Part shown: positions 15,962 through 24,901 of the stretch, in pieces
Layout: the number at the start of each line of letters is the position of its first letter
Position numbering within the stretch: the first letter of the stretch is position 1
Origin: Nitrososphaerota archaeon
GTDB lineage: Archaea; Thermoproteota; Nitrososphaeria; Nitrososphaerales; JACQRY01
DNA: 64,000 bases
NCBI GenBank assembly: GCA_016184315.1
Contig: JACPCU010000021.1
Coordinates: 10,050-74,049, forward strand
Direction of reading: 5' to 3'
Notes under the pieces: generated by a model
Database searches by the model: none
Told to the model about the DNA's origin: nothing
Seen by the model: the letters and a program-made list of their open reading frames with translations, nothing else
Translations under genes and position numbers: made by a program

Positions 15962-16114
15962 ATGCCCATTTGTCCTCGGTGCGGGAAATTTGTCAAGGAT
16001 CTTCGAAAACATAGAAGTAGGAACAGGTGTAGAGTAAAGGGGAAACGCAAGGCGGAGGCACTACCCTTACCAAGCAGTCTTCAAGAAAAACTGACAAATC
16101 CTATGGTCTATTAG
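15962..16114 (+). CDS. Hypothetical small basic protein with a C-x2-C...H-x4-C zinc-knuckle-like pattern
   Basis: Below the ORF-track size cutoff. Own translation: MPICPRCGKFVKDLRKHRSRNRCRVKGKRKAEALPLPSSLQEKLTNPMVY (50 aa). It sits at the left edge of the Rhs island. No other support. Confidence 0.25.
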   Translation: MPICPRCGKFVKDLRKHRSRNRCRVKGKRKAEALPLPSSLQEKLTNPMVY

Positions 16115-16150
16115 GGAATTTGATGGTTCAAGACGTAAACAAGGTGAGGG

Positions 16151-16462
16151 ACCTCTTCAACAAGGCCACGGTGCACCATCAGCTACACGTATGATCAGGT
16201 GGGAAACAGGTTGACGAAGAAAGAAGGCACCACAACTGTAGCCTACACCTATGGAGCCTACAACAGGCTCACCTCCACAAACAGCTCTCTCACATTCACC
16301 TATGATAACAACGGGAACACGCTCAGCAAGATTGAGGGTGGAGACACTTGGAACTACACTTACAACTACAACAACATGATGACGAAAGCAGTCAAGAACA
16401 GCGTTACTCAAGGACAGTATTTCTACGATGGGGAGAATAAGAGGGTGAAAGTCATCGAAGGT
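16151..16462 (+). repeat. YD-repeat block, copy A (paralogous to 21031..21350 and the degraded copy at 22125..22345)
   Basis: Encodes TSSTRPRCTISYTYDQVGNRLTKKEGTTTVAYTYGAYNRL...YNYNNMMTKAVKNSVTQGQYFYDGENKRVKVIEG, against copy B TSSTGPWGTISYTYDQVGNRLTKTEGSTTSYTYGTYNRL...YDYNNMMTKAVKNSVTQGQYFYDCDNRRVKTIES. 16373-16416 and 21247-21290 match at 43 of 44 nt. Confidence 0.9.
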
Positions 16463-17557
16463 TCCACTCTGATCAACATGTTCAACGGTTTAAACATCAT
16501 CTACCAGAAGAACATGACGAGTGGAAGCATATCTAAATTCTTCTTCGCCAACGGTCTGGTGATAGCTAAGAACAATGGTTCGTCGACCTATTATCATCAG
16601 GACTCTCTTGGAAGCACAAGGTTGACCACCAGCTCATCGAAGCTCCAGATATTCGCTTCGAACTACAAGCCTTTCGGACCCTTGTACAACCAATCGGGAA
16701 CAGAGAAGGTGAAGTACACGGGGAAATGGGAGGACTCACCTACCAAGCTATACTACTTCGGAGCTCGTTACTATGACCCGGAGATAGGCAGATTCACAAC
16801 TCAGGACACAGTTGTGACCATCAACCAATATATCTACGCCAATAACAATCCGTACAAATATATCGGCCCCACGGGAAGAGAACCGGTGAGAAAGGAAATT
16901 GGTTCGTATGAGTTGATAGTCGATTACATAAGAGGACTCGAAGCGTCTCATCCTGGTGCTAAACCAACAGAAATATTGAATATGATAGTCAACAGAGAAG
17001 GCCCAGGCTTTGGGCAACCTAAATTTGGTGACGGATATCCAAAAGATGCTCGCTATATTTACTCGGAAAGCGCAGGCTTTGTGGATATGCTTCATTTCTT
17101 TGATAACGCTAAGTTGGGTGCCAATTACGGGATCGGGCCCTTCGACCCTGCCGGCATTGCACTCGACTATGGCGTGGAGATTGGACAGGCCGCGACGAGA
17201 GATAGACCGAGTGCGTTCAGCTACGAGGACATCACTTCGAATCGACTAGGACGAGCGTTCGGAGTGAATGTCCTGACTTCTAGCATCCTTGTGACTGTTG
17301 GCATCTCTGACGATAAACCTTTGTCACAACAATTCTCTGATTACATGAAGAATATAGGTGCCTCAACAAATCCAGAAGAAACCATCAAGAAACAGCATCC
17401 TGGGTTGTGGGAAACCATCCCGGAAAACCGGGACGCCGTACAGAAGACAGGTTTCCTACCGGCTTCAAGGACATGTGTCATCTGTTATGGGCCTGCTATT
17501 CCAGATTCTTTGGGATCAATACCAATAGTCGGTGGAATTCTGTCATGGGCGTTTTAG
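16199..17557 (+). CDS. Orphan Rhs/YD-repeat C-terminal module 1: YD repeats, Rhs core end, and an unassigned ~230-aa C-terminal (toxin-like) domain
   Basis: ORF track 452 aa. The frame is open from 16148 (after TGA at 16145-16147) with no ATG; the first candidate start is GTG at 16199. YD repeats, then the Rhs-associated core signature YYFGARYYDPEIGRFTTQD, then a degenerate tip motif YANNNPYKYIGPTGRE (canonical form NNPxxxxDPxG). An unrelated domain follows, ending in a hydrophobic tail (GSIPIVGGILSWAF). Confidence 0.78.
   Translation: MGNRLTKKEGTTTVAYTYGAYNRLTSTNSSLTFTYDNNGNTLSKIEGGDTWNYTYNYNNMMTKAVKNSVTQGQYFYDGENKRVKVIEGSTLINMFNGLNIIYQKNMTSGSISKFFFANGLVIAKNNGSSTYYHQDSLGSTRLTTSSSKLQIFASNYKPFGPLYNQSGTEKVKYTGKWEDSPTKLYYFGARYYDPEIGRFTTQDTVVTINQYIYANNNPYKYIGPTGREPVRKEIGSYELIVDYIRGLEASHPGAKPTEILNMIVNREGPGFGQPKFGDGYPKDARYIYSESAGFVDMLHFFDNAKLGANYGIGPFDPAGIALDYGVEIGQAATRDRPSAFSYEDITSNRLGRAFGVNVLTSSILVTVGISDDKPLSQQFSDYMKNIGASTNPEETIKKQHPGLWETIPENRDAVQKTGFLPASRTCVICYGPAIPDSLGSIPIVGGILSWAF
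16538..16807 (+). repeat. Rhs core-end block, copy 1 (paralogous to 18065..18340)
   Basis: FFFANGLVIAKNNGSSTYYHQDSLGSTRLTTSSSKLQIFASNYKPFGPLYNQSGTEKVKYTGKWEDSPTKLYYFGARYYDPEIGRFTTQD, against KYFYANGLMIARVNPFATTYFHQDSLGSTRLTTSASKLQLFASNYKPFGPVYNQSGTEKVKYTGKWEDSATKLYYFGARYYDPEIGRFTTQDP. Confidence 0.9.
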
Positions 17558-17574
17558 GCATCATAAGGAGGTCG

Positions 17575-17985
17575 ATGCTACTCAGAACCTATCTGGCGTT
17601 GGTAACGGCTTCTTCTTTGCTAGGTATCTATTCGGGCATTTATGTCGAAAATGTGAAAGCGTCGAATCCTGGGGTAGATCCAGAGCTGTTATTGGAATTT
17701 GATCCGGTTTTCCCCATAAATGGACTGTTCATCATATGCATAATGATTTTCAGTGTCTATATCCTAGCAGCGTCCATCGACAAGACGTATCCGACCTTTA
17801 TTCTGCTTTTGCCTTTAGCCGAACTGGCATTAATTGCGATAAGGATTTTCGGAGACGAAAGCCTGTTTTACCCAGTGTTATCCGCCCAGATACTGTTGTC
17901 GTCGCTCCTACTTCTTGCGTCCTATGTTTCGCCTTCAAACCCATCTAGACTAGAGATAAGAAGACGGGAAGGTAAGGCAGATTAA
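17575..17985 (+). CDS. Four-TM membrane protein; candidate immunity protein for Rhs module 1
   Basis: ORF track 17407..17985 overlaps the Rhs ORF. Plausible starts are ATG at 17545 or ATG at 17575, which is preceded by AGGAGG (17566-17571). Hydrophobic segments: LLRTYLALVTASSLLGIYSGIYV, INGLFIICIMIFSVYILAASI, TFILLLPLAELALIAIRIF, VLSAQILLSSLLLLASYV. The role is inferred from position only. Confidence 0.5.
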   Translation: MLLRTYLALVTASSLLGIYSGIYVENVKASNPGVDPELLLEFDPVFPINGLFIICIMIFSVYILAASIDKTYPTFILLLPLAELALIAIRIFGDESLFYPVLSAQILLSSLLLLASYVSPSNPSRLEIRRREGKAD

Positions 17986-17989
17986 GTGG

Positions 17990-18959
17990 TTGAAACTAAT
18001 ACCAGAGTCTTCACATGCCTTGGCTTACATAATTCAGGAGAGGGATGTCAACGTCGTCAGCAAATACTTCTATGCTAACGGTTTGATGATTGCTAGGGTT
18101 AATCCTTTCGCTACGACGTACTTCCATCAGGACTCATTGGGCTCAACGAGGCTGACGACTAGCGCATCTAAGCTCCAGTTATTCGCTTCCAACTACAAGC
18201 CTTTTGGGCCAGTGTATAACCAGTCGGGAACGGAGAAGGTGAAGTATACGGGGAAATGGGAGGACTCAGCAACCAAACTATACTACTTCGGGGCTAGATA
18301 CTACGACCCTGAGATAGGGAGGTTCACCACGCAGGATCCCGTGCTGGGAACATCTGACGATCCGCAGACGCTGAACCGTTACCCGTATGCTAAGAATAAT
18401 CCGTTGAAGTATGTTGATCCTGATGGCAGGTTCATAGACACTATCTTCGATGCCTTTGGTATCCTCAATTCCTTTCATACCGACCTTCGGAGTTATCAGG
18501 AAGACTGTTCGTCATATTGACGATGCAATCCGCGGCGTTAGGAAGGTAGATCTCGACGATCTTACTGCGGCGACTAAGAAGATAGGCGGGTTGATGGATG
18601 ATACGCTAAGTCACCGAGGACATTTTGAAGACATGAAAGCGAACGGGCTTGTCGAGGCTCAGACCTTTGAGGCTTTTCAGCAAGAGGCTAAAGATTTTGT
18701 TCATAAGGGTGTGACTGCAGCCAAGAGTGGTGATAGCAACTATAAGATCTATGCCCAGAACGACGGAGCCTATGCAATCGTTGACACTAAGAGGCAGATA
18801 TTTGCTATCTATGATCCCGAACAGGACAAGGTTAGGACATTCTTCTCACCCCTACAAGGTGATGCCGAACATCGTTCGATAACGATGCAACAATACATCG
18901 AAATGAAGCTGGAAGCTGGACGGCAAGGAAAAACAGAAGGCTGGAGGCCCACTGGTTAA
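17990..18959 (+). pseudogene. Orphan Rhs C-terminal module 2: Rhs core end with a canonical DPxG tip and an unassigned toxin-like domain, split by a +1 frame shift near 18465-18480
   Basis: ORF 17990..18520 has YYFGARYYDPEIGRFTTQDP...YAKNNPLKYVDPDGRFIDTIFDAFGILNS and then stops. ORF 18450..18959 in the next frame continues sensibly (IPFIPTFGVIRKTVRHIDDAIRG...SHRGHFEDM...YKIYAQNDGAYAIVDTKRQIFAIYDPEQDKVRTFFSP). Skipping one nt near 18471 joins them into about 320 aa. Confidence 0.65.
18065..18340 (+). repeat. Rhs core-end block, copy 2 (paralogous to 16538..16807)
   Basis: See 16538..16807. Roughly four-fifths nt identity by eye, with near-identical stretches (gagaaggtgaagta[c/t]acggggaaatgggaggactca). 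Confidence 0.9.
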
Positions 18960-19661
18960 ATGGCTGTCAGAAAGAATCTTCTTGAGCATGACCCTTACTT
19001 TGACTCACTAATACGTCGTAAGTCGGAAGGCGTGATAGAAGCCCTAGGGAGAGTCGAAAAGGGTCTAAAGGAAGATCGGAATTCAAGAGACTTTCCTTGG
19101 GATGAACCATTTAGTTTCTTGGGCATGCTTGTCTACGATCTGGAAGAGGCGGAGGAGAACGGATACGATATCTCCCCCTATGAGCGAATTAGAGTGGAAT
19201 GCGTTGAAAATGTGAAGGCGTTCTGCCAAAAATGGGGAAAGAAATACCTTGATAAGGTTAGGGATTTCATGAAATTCTGGTATGCGGATTCATATGCAGT
19301 GTGGATCAGGAAATTAGAGGAGATGATTAAGAGCGGAGAGCTCGTCAAAGAATCCCCTATACATATGAAGATTTCATGCTTCGAATCTCGCGTGATAAAA
19401 GCTTACGGGCTTGCGGGGCTAAGAGCTGTATCAATAGCAAAAGAAATAGACATGCACGAAATTGAGCGTATAGTAGCTGAGTGTGATGAACGCTTTCGAA
19501 AATTACTTCCTGCGATAGCCAAGACCTACGCCAATGTTCCTAACCTATTCAAGGGAAATTCCCCTAGGACTTGGTGGTGGCACCATGAAGCGCGCCGCCT
19601 GCATGAGATGTATAGAGCCCAGTTGTCACCTGGAACCCCTGACAGAGATTACTACACATAA
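18960..19661 (+). CDS. Hypothetical helical cytoplasmic protein; candidate immunity protein for Rhs module 2
   Basis: 233 aa. Its ATG directly follows the stop of the toxin-domain ORF (18957-18959). W/K/E-rich helical sequence (WGKKYLDKVRDFMKFWYADSYAVWIRKLEEMIKSGE) with no TM segment or signal. No family recognised; the role is inferred from position. Confidence 0.5.
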   Translation: MAVRKNLLEHDPYFDSLIRRKSEGVIEALGRVEKGLKEDRNSRDFPWDEPFSFLGMLVYDLEEAEENGYDISPYERIRVECVENVKAFCQKWGKKYLDKVRDFMKFWYADSYAVWIRKLEEMIKSGELVKESPIHMKISCFESRVIKAYGLAGLRAVSIAKEIDMHEIERIVAECDERFRKLLPAIAKTYANVPNLFKGNSPRTWWWHHEARRLHEMYRAQLSPGTPDRDYYT

Positions 19662-21435
19662 AGATGATCTAACGGATCAGACCTACGATAAGGCTGGGAA
19701 TCTTCTTACAGTTAAGGATGCTAAGGGCCAGTTGACGAGGTTCTACTATGATGACTTGAATAGGAATATCAAGACCACGTTTCCGGACAACAAGAATCAG
19801 ACTGGGTTCTACGATGTGTTGGGGAATGTGGTGGGTGTGAAGGATTCTAATGGTAACTCTACGAGCTTTGCGTATGATGAGGGGGGTAGGCTGTTCTATG
19901 CTGGGAGCGGCGCGGGGAGGGATAATCTTGTCGCTTGGTGGCTCTTTGACGAAGGCTTGGGCGGCTCTGTTAGGGATAGTAGTGATAACAAGAATTCGGG
20001 GGTCTTGGTGAACGGCCCCGTGTGGGTTGAGGGGAAGCAGGGTAGGGCCTTGAGTTTTGATGGGGTGGATGATTCCGCGGACTTTGGGGATAAGGCTGGT
20101 TTCCGTTTCGGGGGCGGGAGCTTCAGTTTGAGCGCGTGGGTGAAGACTTCGTCGGCCTCTAATCAGGGTATTATTGACAAGAAGTTCGGCTTCGGCGCCG
20201 GGGTGGCTGGTTACTCGCTTTTCGTGAATACGAACGGTAATCTGCGTTACCAGATTTCGGATGGGGCGAGTCAGAATGATAATAATGCTGGTGTGGTGAG
20301 GGATGGGAACTGGCATCATGTGGCGATGGTGAGGAATGCGTCTAGCTCTAGGGTCAATCTGTATGTTGATGGTGTGCAGGTGTTAAGTGACTCTACTACT
20401 GTAGGCAATTTGGACAATGCTCAAAGCCTGTACGTTGGCTACGGTGCCGGTGGGGGAAACTTTTTCCCTGGGTCAATCGATGATGTTAAGGTGTTTTCGA
20501 GGGCTTTGGGTGCGGCGGAGGTTTTGGCTGAGTATCGTTCCCAAGGCGTGTCAGTCATCTATGATAAGATGAGTAACAGGGTGTCTATGAGCGACTCCGC
20601 TTCCGCTGCCACGTATGGTTATGATGCTTTGAACAGGCTGCTCAGCGAAGCCAAGACTGTTGACGGTTCACAGTACACTACATCCTTTACCTATGATGCT
20701 GGGAGCCGTGTGACGAAACTGACTTATCCTGATGCTTACCAGTTGAGCTACCAGTATGATGATTTGGATAGGGTGAAGAGCCTCGGGGGCTTTGCTAACT
20801 TCACTTACACGAAGGACAATAAGGTTAAGACGATTACTTATGGTAATGGTATTCAGACGACGTATACCTATGATTTGAGGAGCAGAGCAACGAGAATACT
20901 TGTCCAGGACGGTTCAACCACTAAGCTGGATTTGAACTATGCTTACAAAGGTAACGGGGATGTAGAAAGCATTGATGATGGGTATGCTCCTACAGATGAG
21001 ACCTACAGCTACGATGGCTTGGACAGGTTGACCTCTTCCACTGGGCCTTGGGGCACCATAAGCTACACTTATGATCAAGTAGGGAACAGGTTGACCAAGA
21101 CTGAGGGCTCCACGACAAGTTACACCTATGGAACATACAATAGGCTTACCCAAGCAGGCTCAACCAACTACACATACGATAATAACGGCAACATGATTAC
21201 GAAGAACGATGGCACAGACTCATGGACATACACCTACGATTACAACAACATGATGACCAAAGCAGTCAAGAACAGCGTTACTCAAGGACAATACTTCTAC
21301 GACTGTGATAATAGACGCGTCAAGACTATTGAGTCTGGGAGCACGACGATATTATGGTTACACTCAAAAAGTAGCTGGTGGATCCTAAGGTTCGTCCGTG
21401 ATGGCTACTGTACCATTTCTCTTATCGTAGATTAG
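19534..21435 (+). CDS. Rhs/YD-repeat core fragment with an embedded LamG/concanavalin-A-like lectin domain; lacks an N-terminal secretion region and the Rhs core end/toxin tip
   Basis: 633-aa ORF. Recognisable YD repeats begin at 19663, 2 nt after the stop of the previous gene (DDLTDQTYDKAGNLLTVKDAKGQLTRFYYDDLNRN). The LamG_3-like block is about 19921-20548 (LVAWWLFDEG...GRALSFDGVDD...FSLSAWVK...WHHVAMV...LYVDGV...IDDVKVFSRAL). More YD repeats follow. Homology to copy A ends near 21350 and the last ~28 codons are out-of-context sequence. Confidence 0.8.
   Translation: MFLTYSREIPLGLGGGTMKRAACMRCIEPSCHLEPLTEITTHKDDLTDQTYDKAGNLLTVKDAKGQLTRFYYDDLNRNIKTTFPDNKNQTGFYDVLGNVVGVKDSNGNSTSFAYDEGGRLFYAGSGAGRDNLVAWWLFDEGLGGSVRDSSDNKNSGVLVNGPVWVEGKQGRALSFDGVDDSADFGDKAGFRFGGGSFSLSAWVKTSSASNQGIIDKKFGFGAGVAGYSLFVNTNGNLRYQISDGASQNDNNAGVVRDGNWHHVAMVRNASSSRVNLYVDGVQVLSDSTTVGNLDNAQSLYVGYGAGGGNFFPGSIDDVKVFSRALGAAEVLAEYRSQGVSVIYDKMSNRVSMSDSASAATYGYDALNRLLSEAKTVDGSQYTTSFTYDAGSRVTKLTYPDAYQLSYQYDDLDRVKSLGGFANFTYTKDNKVKTITYGNGIQTTYTYDLRSRATRILVQDGSTTKLDLNYAYKGNGDVESIDDGYAPTDETYSYDGLDRLTSSTGPWGTISYTYDQVGNRLTKTEGSTTSYTYGTYNRLTQAGSTNYTYDNNGNMITKNDGTDSWTYTYDYNNMMTKAVKNSVTQGQYFYDCDNRRVKTIESGSTTILWLHSKSSWWILRFVRDGYCTISLIVD
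21031..21350 (+). repeat. YD-repeat block, copy B (within the core fragment)
   Basis: See 16151..16462. Confidence 0.9.
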
Positions 21436-21822
21436 GCGAAGCTTGTTCAGAATATCTCTTCCAAGGACACTTGGAATCCTCAGTATGTTCTCATCAATCT
21501 TATCGTGTCTCACTACTAACAGCTCTGTAAGTGACTCTCTATGCTCAGCCCCCTCATCGGTTCTGAAGTAGAGCTCCGCATCCCTTGCAACAAATGTTCC
21601 CACAACACCTCCTAAGCCTAGTAGGGGCTGTTTCGATTCCCCGAGCCTAGCGTATGAAATGCCCATCGATAAAACGTCCTTATCCAGAATGGCGGTCTTT
21701 GTGGCGCCGGTATCGATCAGTAACTCTATGCTCTGCCTTATGTTGAGCTTAGGCACCGCGACTACAGCAGTAAGATAGGCTCCTTCTAAGGGCCCGGCTC
21801 TAAAGTAGCCTTTCAGACGCAC
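21385..21822 (-). CDS. Retropepsin-like (clan AA) aspartic protease, small single-domain prokaryotic type
   Basis: 145 aa with a GTG start at 21822. Catalytic signature LIDTGATKTAIL (D-T-G-A) and later SVLGRDILNKL (flap/dimer-interface-like). Resembles the archaeal AF_0612-type clan AA proteases (family name from memory). Confidence 0.75.
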   Translation of the reverse strand: MRLKGYFRAGPLEGAYLTAVVAVPKLNIRQSIELLIDTGATKTAILDKDVLSMGISYARLGESKQPLLGLGGVVGTFVARDAELYFRTDEGAEHRESLTELLVVRHDKIDENILRIPSVLGRDILNKLRLIYDKRNGTVAITDEP

Positions 21823-22083
21823 CTATACCACAAGAACCATATTAATCGGTTTCTTGGTCACGTATTCTATCGCTACCTCTGAGTATCTCCCAGCCAGTTT
21901 CTTTCTCAACCGTGCCGCGAGCCTCTTCAGGTCCCCGTCGTAGTCGATCACGCTTTTGTCGAGAACAGCTACCCATTTGTCGTCGTATCTTTTGGTCAGC
22001 TGTTTGTAGCTTAAATTAAGCCACTTTCGGTTCTCCTCCGCTCTAGAAATAAGTTCAGCGATGGACATAGTACCCTGACTCAA
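21823..22083 (-). CDS. Small DUF5678-like protein, translationally coupled to the aspartic protease
   Basis: 86 aa. Its stop TAG (21825-21823) abuts the protease GTG (21822). The pattern W..LSYKQL...Y.DKWVAVLDKSVIDYDGDLKRL resembles small antitoxin-like beta-proteins annotated DUF5678 (family name from memory, unverified). Confidence 0.45.
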   Translation of the reverse strand: MSQGTMSIAELISRAEENRKWLNLSYKQLTKRYDDKWVAVLDKSVIDYDGDLKRLAARLRKKLAGRYSEVAIEYVTKKPINMVLVV

Positions 22084-22124
22084 CTTATTGTAAAGAGCTT
22101 AAATTCTTATCTACCGCATATAGT

Positions 22125-22345
22125 TATGACGGCTTGGATAGACTGATATCTTCGACAGGCACGTGGGGCACCATCAGCCACACTTACGGAACTTACAACA
22201 GGCTTAGGCAGGTTCGACCAACTATACTTACGATAACAATGGGAACATGATCAGCAAGATAGCTGGGGGAGACACTTGAAACTACACCTACAACTACAAC
22301 AACAGGAAGAGCAAAGCTGTGAAGAACAGCGTTACACAAAGAAAA
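22125..22345 (+). pseudogene. Degraded third copy of the YD-repeat block (Rhs fragment C)
   Basis: Reads YDGLDRLISSTGTWGTISHTY-GTYNRL..(frame break)..YTYDNNGNMISKIAGGDT*NYTYNYNN..KAVKNSVTQ. An internal deletion removes the DQVGNRLTK.. segment. There is an indel frame break, and TGG has become TGA at 22277-22279. Confidence 0.75.
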
Positions 22346-22404
22346 CACCTCGTGACCGTGCCGGCTACGCCTTCGAACAGACAACCAATTCTCTATTTAT
22401 AGAG

Positions 22405-22506
22405 AGGTCTCTCTGTCTCCGTCTCTCCCCCCCTCCCTCCCCCCCAACCACACACCGCGAGAAAGACAACCCCACAACACCCAACTACCCACCAAAAGAC
22501 CAACCC
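22405..22506. repeat. Pyrimidine/C-rich low-complexity tract (plus strand) with a C7-T-C3-T-C7 core; G-quadruplex/i-motif-capable
   Basis: 22427-22445 reads ccccccctccctccccccc, which is G7-A-G3-A-G7 on the minus strand. The flanks are CT/CA-rich. It lies between Rhs fragment C and the 3' end of the minus-strand gene that stops at 22507. Confidence 0.7.
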
Positions 22507-22884
22507 CTACTCTTCAGCAGACTTCAACTTATCCTGCAAAGAAACAAGCCTACCACTATCCTCAACCGCAATCCTAGTCTCCACCCTAACATTCAACCCC
22601 AAATTCCTGAAAAGCGACAGAAGCTCTCCACCAGAAACATACTCCTTCAAAGTACCCTCCTTGATCAGAGCCGCAAGCCTCTTCACAATAACCTGAGTCT
22701 CCCTAGGATAGAATGTTTCCGCAGCCTCCAACACCTCCACTCCCCTATCCACCAAATATCCGACAACGATCTCCCTGTCAGTCCTCTCCTTGGTCTTCTC
22801 TTTGGACTGTTCTTGAGCAAGCTTCTTCCTAAGCTGCATCATCTTCTTCCTAGTGATAAGATCGAGTTCTCTGTCGCTCTCCAT
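22507..22884 (-). CDS. PDCD5/TFAR19-like double-stranded DNA-binding protein (COG2118-like)
   Basis: 125 aa. N-terminal ELDLITRKKMMQLRKKLAQEQ and the central helical part (LVDRGVEVLEAAETFYPRETQVIVKRLAALIKEGTLKEYVSGGELLSLFRNL) parallel the MTH1615-type family as I recall it. Confidence 0.55.
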   Translation of the reverse strand: MESDRELDLITRKKMMQLRKKLAQEQSKEKTKERTDREIVVGYLVDRGVEVLEAAETFYPRETQVIVKRLAALIKEGTLKEYVSGGELLSLFRNLGLNVRVETRIAVEDSGRLVSLQDKLKSAEE

Positions 22885-22972
22885 AAAGTAAGAAAAGCTT
22901 CTCCTTAAGGCAGTATTTTAACAGTTTCCACCCCACTCAGGCTTAAATCAATCCATCTAAGCTCTAAACCAT

Positions 22973-23842
22973 GTGCACACTCCGCGAGTTTGGATAGCCA
23001 TCCCAGACAGCATCCTAACCGACACTCCGAGCCTAAGGGAAAAAACCGTCAAGATGGGGACGATCGCAAGAGCAGCAGCCATATTCAAAGTCACGCAAAT
23101 ATACCTCTACCACCATCGCAAACACGCACAACCTCAAGACTCTAATCTAATACACGACATCTTGGAATACCTCAACACACCCCAATACCTACGGAAAACA
23201 CTCTACCCAATGAAAAAAGAATTCGCCTACACAGGACTACTCCCACCCCTCAGAACACCCGCCCACACAGTTCCTACCAAACCCGAAGCCGTCAAAACAG
23301 GAGACTACAGACAAGGCACGCCAGTACCCACCAGCAAAGGACTTCAAATCGACGCAGGGTTACCCCATCTGATGCCATTCCAAGGAAGAGCCAAAAAAGG
23401 GGAAAGAATCACCGTGCGCATAACTTCAACAGCGCCATTTGAATGTGAAATCTCTGATCCTCCACCCACCACATACTGGGGCTACAAAGTAGTCGCAGAA
23501 CCATCTCTCACCGTCCTACTCAACGAAAATAAAGCCGACGCAACCCTACTAACATCAAGAAAAGGACAGAACATCACCCACGTCTGGCCGAAACTAATCC
23601 AAACACTTGCCTCAGCATCAACCCTACTAGTCATATTCGGCTCAACCAAACAAGGCATCTTCGAAATCATGAGTGAGGAAGGCATGGAACCCAGCTCAGT
23701 AAAAGCCATGTCCCTGAATACCTTTCCGCAGCAAGGCACAGCAACAGTCAGAGTAGAAGAAGCCCTCCTAGGATCACTGGCCATACTCAACACCGCTGCC
23801 GAAATCGCCAGACCAAAGACCATCGATGTGCACACCCCATAG
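22973..23842 (+). CDS. SPOUT-superfamily RNA methyltransferase, DUF171/Methyltrn_RNA_3 (COG2106) type
   Basis: 289 aa with a GTG start. The N-terminus VWIAIPDSILTDTPSLREKTVKMGTIARAAAIFKVTQIYLY is characteristic. There is a central inserted OB-like region and a C-terminal knot region (LLVIFGSTKQGIFEI). Confidence 0.7.
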   Translation: MHTPRVWIAIPDSILTDTPSLREKTVKMGTIARAAAIFKVTQIYLYHHRKHAQPQDSNLIHDILEYLNTPQYLRKTLYPMKKEFAYTGLLPPLRTPAHTVPTKPEAVKTGDYRQGTPVPTSKGLQIDAGLPHLMPFQGRAKKGERITVRITSTAPFECEISDPPPTTYWGYKVVAEPSLTVLLNENKADATLLTSRKGQNITHVWPKLIQTLASASTLLVIFGSTKQGIFEIMSEEGMEPSSVKAMSLNTFPQQGTATVRVEEALLGSLAILNTAAEIARPKTIDVHTP

Positions 23843-23930
23843 ATGCCAATAGAAATCATCGGGAAAAGCCTGCCACGATAAGCGAAAACTTGAAGACAAA
23901 GAGTCTACCAAGAAAGAAGCGTCGAGAGAA

Positions 23931-24901
23931 ATGGTTGACCCTATTCTGACAGCATCAATCATAGTTCCACTATTAGTGTTGCTCTACATTTTCACGCTAG
24001 GTTTCAGGATCGTCATACCAACCGAAAGAGGCCTAGTTGAGAGACTCGGAAAACATGAGCGTTTCGTGGAGCCCGGATTCCACTGGATCATCCCCGTTGT
24101 CCACAGAATGTTTAAAGTGAACATAACAGAAAAGATGGTCACCGTTGCACAGCAAGCAATCATCACTAAGGACAAACTGAACGCCCAGGTGAGCGCCCAA
24201 ATCTACTTCAAAGTGAAGCCAGAGGAGGGCACGGTAAAGGCGAGCCAGTACAACGTCAACAAAGTAGATGAACAGATAGTAGCCTTGGCTCAAACTACTC
24301 TCCGAAACATTATCGGCACCAACACTGACGGAGGCCAACAGTGAGAGGAGCAGGATCAACAGCGACCTCATGAAGACCTTGAGCGAAGAAACAAAGCACT
24401 GGGGAATGCAAGTCGTCAGAGCCGAGCTCAGGGAGATAGATCCGCCTCCAGACGTGCAGGAGACCATGAACAAGGTCGTCAAAGCTGAAAACGAGAAGAC
24501 TGCTGCAAGAGACTTCTCAGAAGCAAAAAGAGACCCAGGCAGACGGCGAGCGCAGAGTAGCCATCAAGATCGCCGAGGGCAGGAAACAAGCGGAGATCCT
24601 CGAAGTAGAAGGAAGGAGGCAAGCTCTCATACTTGAAGGAGAAGGCAAGGCCAAAGCACTGGAAACAGTGTTCACCGCCTCTGAGCAATGCTTCAAAGGA
24701 GGCGCAATAACACTGCGCCAAATAGAAGTAGTGGAGAACTCTCTAAAAGAGAACAGCGTCTTCATAGTCCCAGAAGACCAGCAGCTAGTGAACCTCATCA
24801 GTGGAATCGCAGGAGCAGGCACCGTCATGATCCCGATGGGCAAGAAGACCAATACTGGCGAAGAGCAATCCAAAGAATCAGCTGCCAAATCTAGAAAGTA
24901 G
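23931..24901 (+). pseudogene. SPFH/stomatin-prohibitin (band 7) family gene interrupted by two +1 frame shifts
   Basis: Three consecutive ORFs in frames 0, 1 and 2 (23931..24344, 24370..24636, 24668..24901) together read as one SPFH protein: TM helix, IVIPTERGLVERLGKHERFVEPGFHWIIP...LRNIIGT | TLTEANSERSRINSDLMKTLSEETKHWGMQVVRAELREIDPPPDVQETMNKVVKAENEKTAARDFSEAK | ETQADGERRVAIKIAEGRKQAEILEVEGRRQALILEGEGKAKALE... Breaks are near 24318-24323 and at the A5 run 24525-24529. Confidence 0.8.

What the first reader, a model, noticed from the sequence alone, without database searches (positions are those of the whole stretch)
17990..19661. Orphan Rhs tip 2: canonical DPDG tip, frameshifted unassigned toxin domain, and a 233-aa helical partner
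**Seen.**
- The module begins with only the Rhs core end (homology from about 18065) and keeps a canonical tip (YAKNNPLKYVDPDGRF).
- About 15 codons later the frame dies (stop at 18518-18520). The +1 frame continues with sequence typical of post-tip linkers (IPFIPTFGVIRKTVRHIDD).
- A ~150-aa alpha/beta domain follows (SHRGHFEDM...YKIYAQNDGAYAIVDTKRQIFAIYDPEQDKVRTFFSP).
- ORF 18960..19661 starts on the base after its stop.

**Inference.**
- The toxin gene is inactivated by a +1 frame disruption, or the disruption is a sequencing error.
- The short His-containing N-terminal helix followed by beta-strands is loosely reminiscent of small BECR/RelE-like RNase toxins. That is a guess from the pattern only.
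- The 233-aa W/K/E-rich protein would be the cognate cytoplasmic immunity protein.
Basis: partly seen in the sequence, partly recalled or inferred. Interest (0 to 1): 0.6.

Follow-up and report, generated by a model that had tools for sequence, protein, structure and literature searches.

The report
Archaeal orphan Rhs toxin–immunity cassette
This is a left-over "spare cartridge" of an Rhs contact-toxin system in a groundwater archaeon: a gene tail carrying a toxin of an unknown family plus its probable antidote gene. The apparent frameshift is a 77-base deletion seen only in this assembly.

Summary
Window 17960-18430 encodes the last ~150 aa of an Rhs shell, with a full TIGR03696 core (E 3e-24) and a PLKYVDPDGR tip. 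A linker follows, then a ~120-aa C-terminal domain (CT2) and a 233-aa ORF (imm2) that starts on the base after the CT2 stop.

The frame break is not a 1-nt indel. Three independent re-assemblies of the same locus, at least two from PRJNA640378 groundwater runs, are 100% identical to the window. They carry 77 extra bases between 18465 and 18466, which restore one continuous open frame, 348 aa if read from TTG 17990. Only the deposited MAG (metagenome-assembled genome) contig has the deletion.

CT2 and imm2 are near-orphans. The only relative found is a decayed CT2+imm2 pair on one other metagenome contig, with no Rhs core upstream. This supports the two genes as a linked toxin-immunity pair.

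No profile library or solved-structure sequence matches either protein. A low-confidence model gives helices followed by a four-strand meander, which is compatible with a BECR-type (barnase/EndoU/colicin E5-D/RelE fold) RNase but not shown.

The host is an archaeon (Thaumarchaeota/Nitrososphaerota MAG). The locus holds four truncated Rhs pieces and no full-length gene, so it is an eroding array. It is a new member of a known kind and of modest interest.

The parts
17960..18430 (+). 5'-truncated end of an Rhs/YD shell. It includes the Rhs-associated core (18194-18427) and the PLKYVDPDGR autoproteolysis-type tip (DPDGR = 18416-18430). There is no YD-repeat shell or N-terminal domain upstream.
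   Evidence: TIGR03696 E 3.3e-24 and NF041261 positions 1179-1260 of 1261. TEN_YD-shell positions 764-894 of 909. tblastn of fragment A hits 17960-18430. Identity to fragment A is 74% and ends at ...GR.
18431..18590 (+). Post-tip linker, broken in this assembly. A 77-nt deletion lies between 18465 and 18466. The intact sequence reads FIDTIFDAFGILADLDAIRQDPSLENWAWLGVDIVLTAIPFIPTFGVIRKTVRHIDD... The deletion moves the downstream part into the +1 frame and creates the stop at 18518-18520.
   Evidence: Alignment of the window with Logan contigs L001, L002 and L003 shows 100% identity apart from the 77-nt gap. The L003 translation is continuous. There is no Pfam PT-TG or other hit on the linker.
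18591..18959 (+). CT2, a ~120-aa C-terminal domain and presumed toxin of an unassigned, nearly singleton family (LMDDTLSHRGHFEDMK...KVRTFFSP...). It lies in the +1 frame in the window and in frame with the Rhs core in the other assemblies.
   Evidence: An exhaustive HMMER search of 1.84e9 representatives found only itself and P0003. Its relative in L006 aligns from residue 48 onward at 57% identity. There are no Pfam, NCBIfam, PADLOC, PHROGs or PDB-sequence hits. The AF2 model has pLDDT 51, with helices 55-64 and 73-92, four strands across 98-132, and helix 146-159.
18960..19661 (+). imm2, a 233-aa all-helical protein that I read by eye as having no hydrophobic segment (no transmembrane predictor was run). 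It is the presumed cognate immunity protein. Its ATG abuts the CT2 stop codon.
   Evidence: Sequence. The identical protein occurs on 6 further contigs. A decayed homologue lies directly after the decayed CT2 copy in L006 (tblastn 3e-9). AF2 gives pLDDT 69 and an all-helical model. No family, PDB or fold match was found.
16150..17557 (+). Context: fragment A, a longer 5'-truncated Rhs module with its own C-terminal domain (CT1) and a non-canonical tip (YIGPTGR).
   Evidence: TIGR03696 E 4e-19. Repeats D1, D2 and D4. Stop codons lie just upstream of the homology.
17545..17985 (+). Context: ORF that looks multi-pass hydrophobic by eye (no transmembrane predictor was run), a candidate immunity gene for CT1. 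Its 3' end abuts the 5' breakpoint of the orphan module.
   Evidence: ORF list and translation. No family hit.
19663..21435 (+). Context: fragment C, the middle part of an Rhs protein (YD repeats plus a Laminin_G_3 domain). It is truncated at both ends and begins immediately after the imm2 stop.
   Evidence: RHS_repeat E 2e-31 and Laminin_G_3 E 3e-28. Its 3' end is homologous to the 5' end of fragment A. The junction with imm2 is also present in L001, L002, L004 and L005.
22119..22400 (+). Context: fragment D, a decayed Rhs remnant with stop codons and a frameshift. It duplicates the segment at the end of fragment C.
   Evidence: Repeats D1, D3 and D5. Three-frame translation. tblastn.

Best explanation
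Window ~17960-19661 is a displaced ('orphan') Rhs C-terminal cassette on the chromosome of a groundwater archaeon (Thaumarchaeota/Nitrososphaerota MAG).

Composition:
- the last ~150 residues of an Rhs shell, with the core and the DPxGR self-cleavage tip;
- a ~55-residue linker;
- a ~120-residue toxin domain (CT2) of a previously undescribed, almost singleton family;
- a directly abutting gene for a 233-aa helical protein (imm2), apparently cytoplasmic, that most likely binds and neutralises CT2.

How it most likely works (inferred by analogy with bacterial Rhs orphans). The cassette has no shell and no export domain, so it cannot deliver its toxin. It acts as a stored alternative tip. It could be moved onto a full-length rhs gene by recombination through the conserved core (83% nt identity over 223 nt with the neighbouring module). 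Meanwhile imm2 protects the cell from kin that deploy CT2.

The frame break. In this assembly a 77-nt deletion in the linker splits the toxin gene. Three other assemblies of the same strain have the gene intact, so the break is either a minor allele or an assembly artefact.

Locus state. The surrounding locus contains only truncated Rhs pieces and no full-length gene, so it is an eroding array.

CT2 activity. It is unknown. My best guess is a small cytoplasm-acting nuclease of the BECR type, at about 0.3 probability.
For: Shown by tool results:
- Rhs core and tip.
- 5' truncation, and no other Rhs sequence in the 64-kb window beyond four fragments.
- Similarity to fragment A is 74% over 125 aa and stops at the tip. 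This is the hallmark of polymorphic-toxin cassettes.
- The 77-nt deletion, against three otherwise 100% identical contigs that give one continuous open frame. SRR12113401 and SRR12113422 belong to PRJNA640378.
- The truncated products P0001 and P0007 occur on the MAG contig only, whereas imm2 occurs on 6 further contigs.
- CT2 and imm2 recur together, both decayed, on JGI contig L006 without an Rhs core.
- The archaeal chromosomal context includes MCM, GINS, RFC, Hel308-type helicase, RtcB and ribosomal protein L3.
- Source names say Thaumarchaeota/Nitrososphaerota.

Inferred:
- Immunity role, from the TAA-ATG abutment, the conserved linkage and the lack of export signals.
- Recombination-reserve role, from established knowledge of E. 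coli, Salmonella and Serratia rhs orphans.

RNase guess rests on:
- helix-helix-four-strand topology;
- top Foldseek hit 8ey4_A, a CDI toxin-immunity complex (probability 0.84, TM-score normalised to the target 0.59), with colicin D at rank 18;
- an apparently cytoplasmic immunity partner.
Against: - No full-length rhs gene lies upstream or anywhere in the window. The recombination-reserve role therefore has no visible recipient here.
- Whether the orphan or imm2 is transcribed is untested. There is no ATG at the 5' end (TTG 17990 at best).
- Toxicity and neutralisation are untested.
- The CT2 model is low-confidence (pLDDT 51) and no fold hit is significant (best E 0.39).
- hhalign against an Rhs-borne DUF4258 domain gave probability 0.2%.
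- The family has only two known loci, so conservation says little.
Confidence: 0.75

Rival explanations
1. The 77-nt deletion is a real allele. In the strain that gave the MAG, the orphan toxin has been knocked out while the immunity gene is kept. This is the usual fate of toxin-immunity cassettes, where selection maintains immunity and not an undeliverable toxin.
For: - The flanks are 100% identical to the intact contigs and there are no Ns or repeats at the junction.
- The repeats in the locus are only 72-83% identical, too diverged to mislead an assembler.
- The deleted stretch has no unusual secondary structure (z 0.71).
- The rest of the locus (fragments C and D) and the L006 copy show that decay is the prevailing trend.
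Against: - All three independent contigs that span the site are intact.
- The broken products are found on the MAG contig alone.
- The original pipeline used MEGAHIT followed by IDBA-UD scaffolding, which can introduce local errors.
- No reads were examined.
Confidence: 0.5
2. The deletion is an assembly or scaffolding artefact, and the organism carries only the intact 348-aa orphan ORF.
For: Three of three other assemblies are intact and otherwise identical. The deleted form is unique to one deposited contig. The assembly method is given.
Against: A clean 77-nt loss with only 1 nt of junction ambiguity, and no repeat to collapse, is not a typical de Bruijn-graph error.
Confidence: 0.45
3. In the deleted allele the pair works as a free-standing, toxin-antitoxin-like module. 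The deletion puts ATG 18450 (or TTG 18456, the start NCBI chose) in frame with the complete toxin domain. A 167-169-aa cytoplasmic toxin and imm2 could then be co-expressed without any Rhs part.
For: - ORF 18450..18959 is open, starts with ATG and contains the whole conserved domain, residues 48-169.
- The L006 relative also lacks an Rhs core upstream.
- The TAA-ATG abutment suits coupled translation.
Against: - In the intact allele this ATG is out of frame and the domain is fused to the Rhs core.
- The L006 copy is itself a pseudogene, with an in-frame stop and a frameshift.
- There is no promoter evidence.
- Nothing suggests selection for the deleted form.
Confidence: 0.08
4. CT2 is not a nuclease. 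It is a toxin with another activity or a new fold, or it is not a toxin at all, and the 233-aa protein is an unrelated passenger.
For: No sequence or fold match reaches significance in any library. The structural model is poor.
Against: - By established knowledge of Rhs and polymorphic toxin systems, the position after a DPxG tip is almost always occupied by a toxin.
- The pair is co-inherited.
- A non-secreted immunity protein argues for a cytoplasmic target.
Confidence: 0.3

Closest known systems
Orphan rhs-CT/rhsI modules of Enterobacteria (E. coli, Salmonella Typhimurium, Serratia, Dickeya)
   Same: - A 5'-truncated piece of the rhs core is followed by a PxxxxDPxG tip, a divergent C-terminal toxin and an abutting immunity gene.
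- Identity to the neighbouring module is high in the core and ends abruptly at the tip.
- Several cassettes are arrayed head-to-tail.
   Different: - The host is an archaeon.
- No full-length rhs gene precedes the array. Every Rhs piece in the window is truncated.
- The toxin and immunity belong to no described family.
- No T6SS, PAAR or VgrG context turned up among the flanking ORFs I scanned against Pfam.
Predicted archaeal polymorphic toxin systems (Zhang et al. 2012, PMC3482391; Makarova et al. 2019, as cited in PMC8416519)
   Same: This is an Rhs/YD-type polymorphic toxin locus in an archaeal genome. It was probably acquired from bacteria and sits as an island of slightly lower GC (46-49% against 51-52%).
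   Different: - Those surveys report such systems as rare in archaea, and report most known immunity families as absent there.
- They are experimentally uncharacterised.
- This locus adds a CT/immunity pair not covered by the Pfam models, and it is a decaying array rather than an intact system.
BECR-fold RNase toxins (colicin D/E5, RelE/ParE, DUF4258, several CdiA-CTs)
   Same: - Small size.
- Predicted N-terminal helices followed by a tight four-strand antiparallel meander.
- His, Arg, Lys and Thr residues shared with the only homologue (H55 R56 H58 K63 H85 K86 T89 K114 R129 T130).
- Apparently cytoplasmic immunity partner.
- The best, non-significant Foldseek hit is a CDI toxin-immunity complex chain, with colicin D at rank 18.
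   Different: - No profile match to any BECR family.
- hhalign against an Rhs-borne DUF4258 domain gave probability 0.2%.
- The model confidence is too low to assign a fold.
- I could not establish whether 8ey4 chain A is the toxin or the immunity protein.
Gram-positive WapA and other Sec-exported YD-repeat toxins
   Same: A relative of the core (43% identity) on contig L085 is a long YD protein (ORFs of 1113 and 770 aa) with a hydrophobic N-terminal leader and a downstream small ORF. This suggests Sec export rather than T6SS for this Rhs lineage.
   Different: The window itself has no N-terminal part, so the export route of this lineage cannot be read from it.

Membership tests
Rhs / YD-repeat polymorphic toxin, C-terminal cassette | Rhs-associated core domain (TIGR03696) at the end of the shell | tested here: met
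   E 3.3e-24, 85.2 bits against a cut-off of 32.5, model positions 1-75 of 76.
Rhs / YD-repeat polymorphic toxin, C-terminal cassette | PxxxxDPxG[LRW] tip that demarcates core from toxin | tested here: met
   PLKYVDPDGR at 18401-18430. Self-cleavage itself is not testable here.
Rhs / YD-repeat polymorphic toxin, C-terminal cassette | Sequence after the tip is unrelated between paralogous modules (polymorphic CT) | tested here: met
   Fragment A and module B are 74% identical over 125 aa up to G(P/D)xGR, with nothing alignable after it.
Rhs / YD-repeat polymorphic toxin, C-terminal cassette | C-terminal domain is toxic and is neutralised by the product of the next gene | not testable with these tools
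   Only indirect support: the TAA-ATG abutment and co-occurrence of decayed CT2 and imm2 in L006.
Orphan rhs module (sensu enterobacterial rhs loci) | 5'-truncated: only the end of the core, no YD shell, no N-terminal or export domain | tested here: met
   Homology starts near 17960, just after stop codons. Only the last ~130 positions of the TEN_YD-shell model are matched.
Orphan rhs module (sensu enterobacterial rhs loci) | Lies downstream of a full-length main rhs gene with which it can recombine | tested here: not met
   The upstream neighbour, fragment A, is itself 5'-truncated. Fragments C and D are also truncated. There is no other Rhs sequence in the 64-kb window. The rest of the genome could not be examined.
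BECR-fold RNase toxins | Profile match to a described BECR toxin family (colicin D/E5, RelE/ParE, DUF4258, Ntox families in Pfam) | tested here: not met
   No Pfam or NCBIfam hit at E up to 10. hhalign against the DUF4258-bearing P0088 gave probability 0.2%.
BECR-fold RNase toxins | Fold: N-terminal helix or helices packed on a four-stranded antiparallel sheet | tested here: inconclusive
BECR-fold RNase toxins | RNA cleavage activity | not testable with these tools
   Needs a biochemical assay.
PT-TG pre-toxin domain (PF14449) | Profile match of the post-tip linker | tested here: not met
   No Pfam hit on the intact 76-aa linker at E up to 10. The resemblance (helical...IPFIPTFG...) is from memory only.
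Described immunity-protein families (SUKH, Imm-xx and others in Pfam/NCBIfam) | Profile match of the 233-aa protein | tested here: not met
   No hit in Pfam, NCBIfam, PADLOC or PHROGs, in PDB sequences or by fold.

The most novel reading that the evidence does not exclude
CT2 and imm2 are founding members of an archaeon-specific toxin-immunity family, with a fold or target not represented among bacterial polymorphic toxins. Truncated Rhs cassettes are kept next to rtcB across distant archaeal lineages. The window and L082 share this arrangement although their RtcB proteins are only 52% identical. They would be kept because they serve as functional immunity and toxin reserves for inter-archaeal contact killing, not as dead relics.
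Probability: 0.12. Interest if true: 0.6.

Novelty: new member of a known kind. Interest (0 to 1): 0.33.

Why it matters
Polymorphic toxin systems are predicted to be rare in archaea and have not been characterised experimentally there (PMC3482391, PMC8416519). This locus gives a concrete, testable archaeal toxin-immunity pair. It has no relatives in about 15 billion predicted proteins apart from one decayed copy.

It also shows that the apparent pseudogene is intact in the natural population. That matters for anyone who wants to synthesise and test it: the 348-aa intact sequence from the Logan contigs should be used, not the MAG sequence.

The case is also a caution. A 'frameshift' in a MAG can hide a larger indel that other assemblies of the same reads resolve.

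Otherwise the anatomy is that of an ordinary Rhs orphan cassette in an eroding locus.

Tried and rejected
Homologue searches that found nothing beyond self or one relic:
- Word-indexed searches of 5.8e9 proteins with CT2 and imm2 returned only self.
- An exhaustive HMMER search of 1.84e9 representatives with CT2 returned self and one 88-aa relic. Three further hits proved to be repeat artefacts, with per-domain scores of 7-12 bits.
- Two JGI metagenome DNA scans, one with CT2+imm2 and one with alignment A2, found nothing.
- tblastn against PLSDB plasmids found nothing.

Profile and structure libraries with no hit for CT2 or imm2:
- Pfam, NCBIfam, PADLOC and PHROGs.
- PDB sequence searches with the single sequence and with a profile.
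- Foldseek against the PDB and BFVD gave no significant match.
- hhalign against a DUF4258 Rhs CT was negative.

Context searches:
- A genome-contig scan with fragment C matched only LamG domains in unrelated genomes.
- Exact-protein look-ups for fragments A, C and imm1 found no record.

Ideas considered and dropped:
- A 1-nt sequencing error or programmed frameshift. The difference is 77 nt at the DNA level.
- The 77 nt as an insertion or mobile mini-element in the other assemblies. It restores a sensible open frame.
- Misassembly through repeats. The repeats are only 72-83% identical.
- A structured DNA element at the deletion site. The z-score is 0.71.
- tRNA or integrase island borders. 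There are no tRNAs in the window.

Literature:
- Searches for PDB entry 8EY4 found nothing.
- Makarova et al. 2019 is not held in the library.
Full report
**Observation.** The region was read directly.
- ORF 17990..18520 (176 aa) carries a full-length match to the Rhs-associated core model TIGR03696: aa 69-146, E 3.3e-24, 85 bits against a cut-off of 32.5.
- It also matches the last ~130 positions of the TEN_YD-shell model.
- The tip PLKYVDPDGR lies at 18401-18430.
- The frame ends at TGA 18518-18520. ORF 18450..18959 (169 aa) runs in the +1 frame.
- ORF 18960..19661 (233 aa) starts on the base after the TAA.

One boundary needs correcting. tblastn with the upstream Rhs fragment shows that Rhs homology begins near 17960, directly after stop codons, not at 18065.

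**The frame break is a 77-nt deletion specific to this assembly.** An exact-protein look-up of the 233-aa product found six further short contigs, five of them shown, all from Logan assemblies of runs SRR12113401, -418, -422, -426 and -432.
- Three of them (L001-L003) reach across the break. They are 100% identical to the window on both sides.
- They contain 77 additional bases between window 18465 and 18466.
- With these bases the reading frame is continuous from the Rhs core through the linker and C-terminal domain to the TAA at 18957-18959. L003 gives 287 aa, cut at the contig end.
- From TTG 17990 the intact ORF would be 348 aa.
- The missing segment encodes about 26 residues of the linker (…FGIL-ADLDAIRQDPSLENWAWLGVDIVLT-AIPFIPTFG…).
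- The truncated products P0001 and P0007 are on record only from the 75-kb NCBI MAG contig, whereas the 233-aa protein is seen on six further contigs.
- SRR12113401 and SRR12113422 belong to PRJNA640378, the Northern California groundwater study of He et al. 2021.
- That study assembled each filter with MEGAHIT and scaffolded with IDBA-UD.
- That the MAG (locus tags HYU39_07500 and HYU39_07505) comes from the same project is my inference, not a tool result.
- The junction has only 1 nt of ambiguity and no flanking repeat. The repeats in the locus are 72-83% identical. The deleted DNA has no unusual fold (z 0.71).

A real minor allele and an assembly artefact are therefore about equally likely. 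Only read mapping can decide.

**Context.** The window is archaeal chromosome. It encodes GINS, MCM, a Hel308-type helicase, RFC, HisRS, RtcB and ribosomal protein L3. Source names give Thaumarchaeota/Nitrososphaerota.

The Rhs locus spans 16150-22400 and has slightly lower GC, 46-49% against 51-52% in the flanks. It holds four Rhs pieces, all incomplete:
- Fragment A (16150-17557) is the last third of a shell plus its own C-terminal domain. A hydrophobic-looking ORF (17545-17985) follows it.
- The orphan module studied here (17960-18959) comes next, followed by imm2.
- Fragment C (19663-21435) has YD repeats and a Laminin_G_3 domain. It is truncated at both ends and starts right after the imm2 stop.
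- Two minus-strand genes follow (21385-22083), a retropepsin-like gene and a DUF5678 gene.
- Fragment D (22119-22400) has stop codons and a frameshift.

No other Rhs sequence, no tRNA and no recombinase was found in the window. Fragment A and the orphan are 74% identical over 125 aa, and the similarity ends exactly at the G(P/D)xGR tip. That is the signature of polymorphic-toxin cassettes.

**The C-terminal domain and its partner.**
- Word-indexed searches of 5.8e9 proteins returned only self for both proteins.
- An exhaustive HMMER search of 1.84e9 cluster representatives with CT2 returned self, one 88-aa protein (P0003, E 4.9e-15) and three long repeat proteins. The latter are artefacts, with per-domain scores of 7-12 bits.
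- P0003 lies on JGI contig L006. Six-frame analysis there shows a decayed copy of CT2, with an in-frame stop and a frameshift. A decayed imm2 homologue follows directly (WDEPFYFLGSLVY…, tblastn 3e-9). No Rhs core lies upstream.
- Homology between the two CT2 copies starts at ORF residue 48 (LMDDTLSHRGH…), so the conserved domain is about 120 aa.

The repeated pairing of the two genes in unrelated contexts is the best available evidence that they form a functional couple.

No further relatives or family assignments were found:
- Two JGI DNA scans, tblastn against plasmids, and phmmer against the other fetched proteins (nearly all Rhs-core) found no further copies.
- No Pfam, NCBIfam, PADLOC, PHROGs or PDB-sequence match exists for CT2, the linker or imm2.

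**Structure.**
- Single-sequence AlphaFold2 gave a poor model for CT2 (pLDDT 51, pTM 0.46). Its elements are helices 55-64 and 73-92, four short strands across 98-132 and helix 146-159.
- The model for imm2 is better and all-helical (pLDDT 69, with 80-93 over residues 11-130).
- Foldseek against the PDB gave no significant match for either protein.
- For CT2 the top hit is chain A of a CDI toxin-immunity complex: 8ey4_A, E 0.39, probability 0.84, TM-score normalised to the target 0.59. Colicin D is at rank 18.
- imm2 matched only generic helical bundles. BFVD was uninformative.
- hhalign against an Rhs-borne DUF4258 domain was negative.

The topology and an apparently non-secreted immunity partner are compatible with it. 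I give it about 0.3.

**Mechanism.**
- Shown: the anatomy of a 5'-truncated Rhs tip, linker, unique CT and abutting partner. Also shown: the intact state of the gene in most assemblies and the co-inheritance of CT2 and imm2.
- Inferred from established knowledge of enterobacterial rhs loci: the module cannot export its toxin. It serves as a silent reserve that could replace the tip of a full-length rhs by recombination through the conserved core (83% nt identity over 223 nt with fragment A). Meanwhile imm2 confers protection against kin that use CT2.
- Against a live reserve: no full-length rhs is visible in the window, and the neighbouring pieces are decaying.
- Relatives of the core do include a long YD protein with a hydrophobic N-terminus (L085). 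Full-length genes of this lineage therefore exist, probably Sec-exported.

**Comparison and novelty.** The closest known system is the orphan rhs-CT/rhsI cassette of Enterobacteria.
- All structural criteria are met except the presence of a main rhs gene upstream.
- The host is archaeal, and such systems have been predicted to be rare and are uncharacterised in archaea.
- The toxin and immunity sequences are new families.

I file it as a new member of a known kind, of modest interest (0.33). The practical result is that the intact sequence, not the MAG sequence, should be used for any experiment.

Noticed in passing
window 16150-17557: Fragment A is also a 5'-truncated Rhs module. Its tip reads YIGPTGR: both Asp residues of the usual DPxG motif are replaced, so self-cleavage may be lost. 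Its C-terminal domain resembles the CT of a Teredinibacter Rhs protein (P0055), sharing RYIY…D..HFF and S.SYED…N.(A/L)G. It gives a weak DUF4056 hit (E 0.002, below cut-off).
   Followed up: partly
window 17545-17985: A 146-aa ORF that looks multi-pass hydrophobic by eye overlaps the stop of fragment A by 13 nt. It is a likely immunity gene for CT1. Its last codons run into the 5' breakpoint of the orphan module. An exact-protein look-up found no record.
   Followed up: partly
window 19663-21435: Fragment C is an Rhs middle piece with a Laminin_G_3 domain (E 3e-28) embedded between YD repeats. It starts on the second base after the imm2 stop and ends by frame decay. Its last ~100 aa are 72% identical to the first ~100 aa of fragment A, so the fragments are in permuted order.
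   Followed up: partly
window 21385-22083 (minus strand): A two-gene unit, a weak retropepsin-like aspartyl protease plus a DUF5678 protein (E 6e-9), sits between two diverged copies of the same Rhs segment (21004-21380 and 22119-22400). It looks like an insertion into, or between, Rhs remnants.
   Followed up: no
window 22119-22400: Fragment D is an Rhs remnant with stop codons and a frameshift, 72-76% identical at nucleotide level to the ends of fragments C and A.
   Followed up: partly
L082 3298-7000 (JGI 3300031877): A distant archaeon (RtcB 52% identical) has the same arrangement. rtcB on the minus strand is followed by a 216-aa 5'-truncated Rhs fragment with a DPDGRF tip, a broken glycine-rich CT and a hydrophobic-looking ORF. 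Either this site is a long-lived Rhs locus or it is a recurrent insertion spot.
   Followed up: partly
L006 6377-6952 (JGI 3300045950): This is the only other copy of CT2 and imm2. Both are pseudogenised (in-frame stop, frameshifts) and no Rhs core lies upstream. The contig carries ORFs with weak archaeal-type hits (PH0730-like, DUF7504).
   Followed up: yes
L085 3481-9602 (ENA ERZ28573654): A relative of the Rhs core (43% identity) is a long YD protein split into ORFs of 1113 and 770 aa. A run of X residues within the second ORF marks a scaffold gap. It has a hydrophobic N-terminal leader, a DPTGH tip and a 147-aa downstream ORF. This suggests that full-length, Sec-exported members of this Rhs lineage exist.
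   Followed up: partly
window 16001-24000: GC content dips to 46-49% across the Rhs locus against 51-52% in the flanking replication and translation genes. This is consistent with foreign origin.
   Followed up: no
window 15962-16114: A small 50-aa ORF with a CPRCG motif and a very basic tail lies between rtcB and fragment A. It may be a zinc-ribbon protein or may not be a gene at all.
   Followed up: no
one search hit list (P0008-P0116): All 110 proteins found with the Rhs-core query are 402 aa or shorter. Many are core, tip and CT only, some on long contigs. Short orphan-like Rhs modules are thus abundant in public data, and their CTs carry many different Pfam toxin domains (HNH, GH-E, DUF4258, Ntox50 and others).
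   Followed up: no
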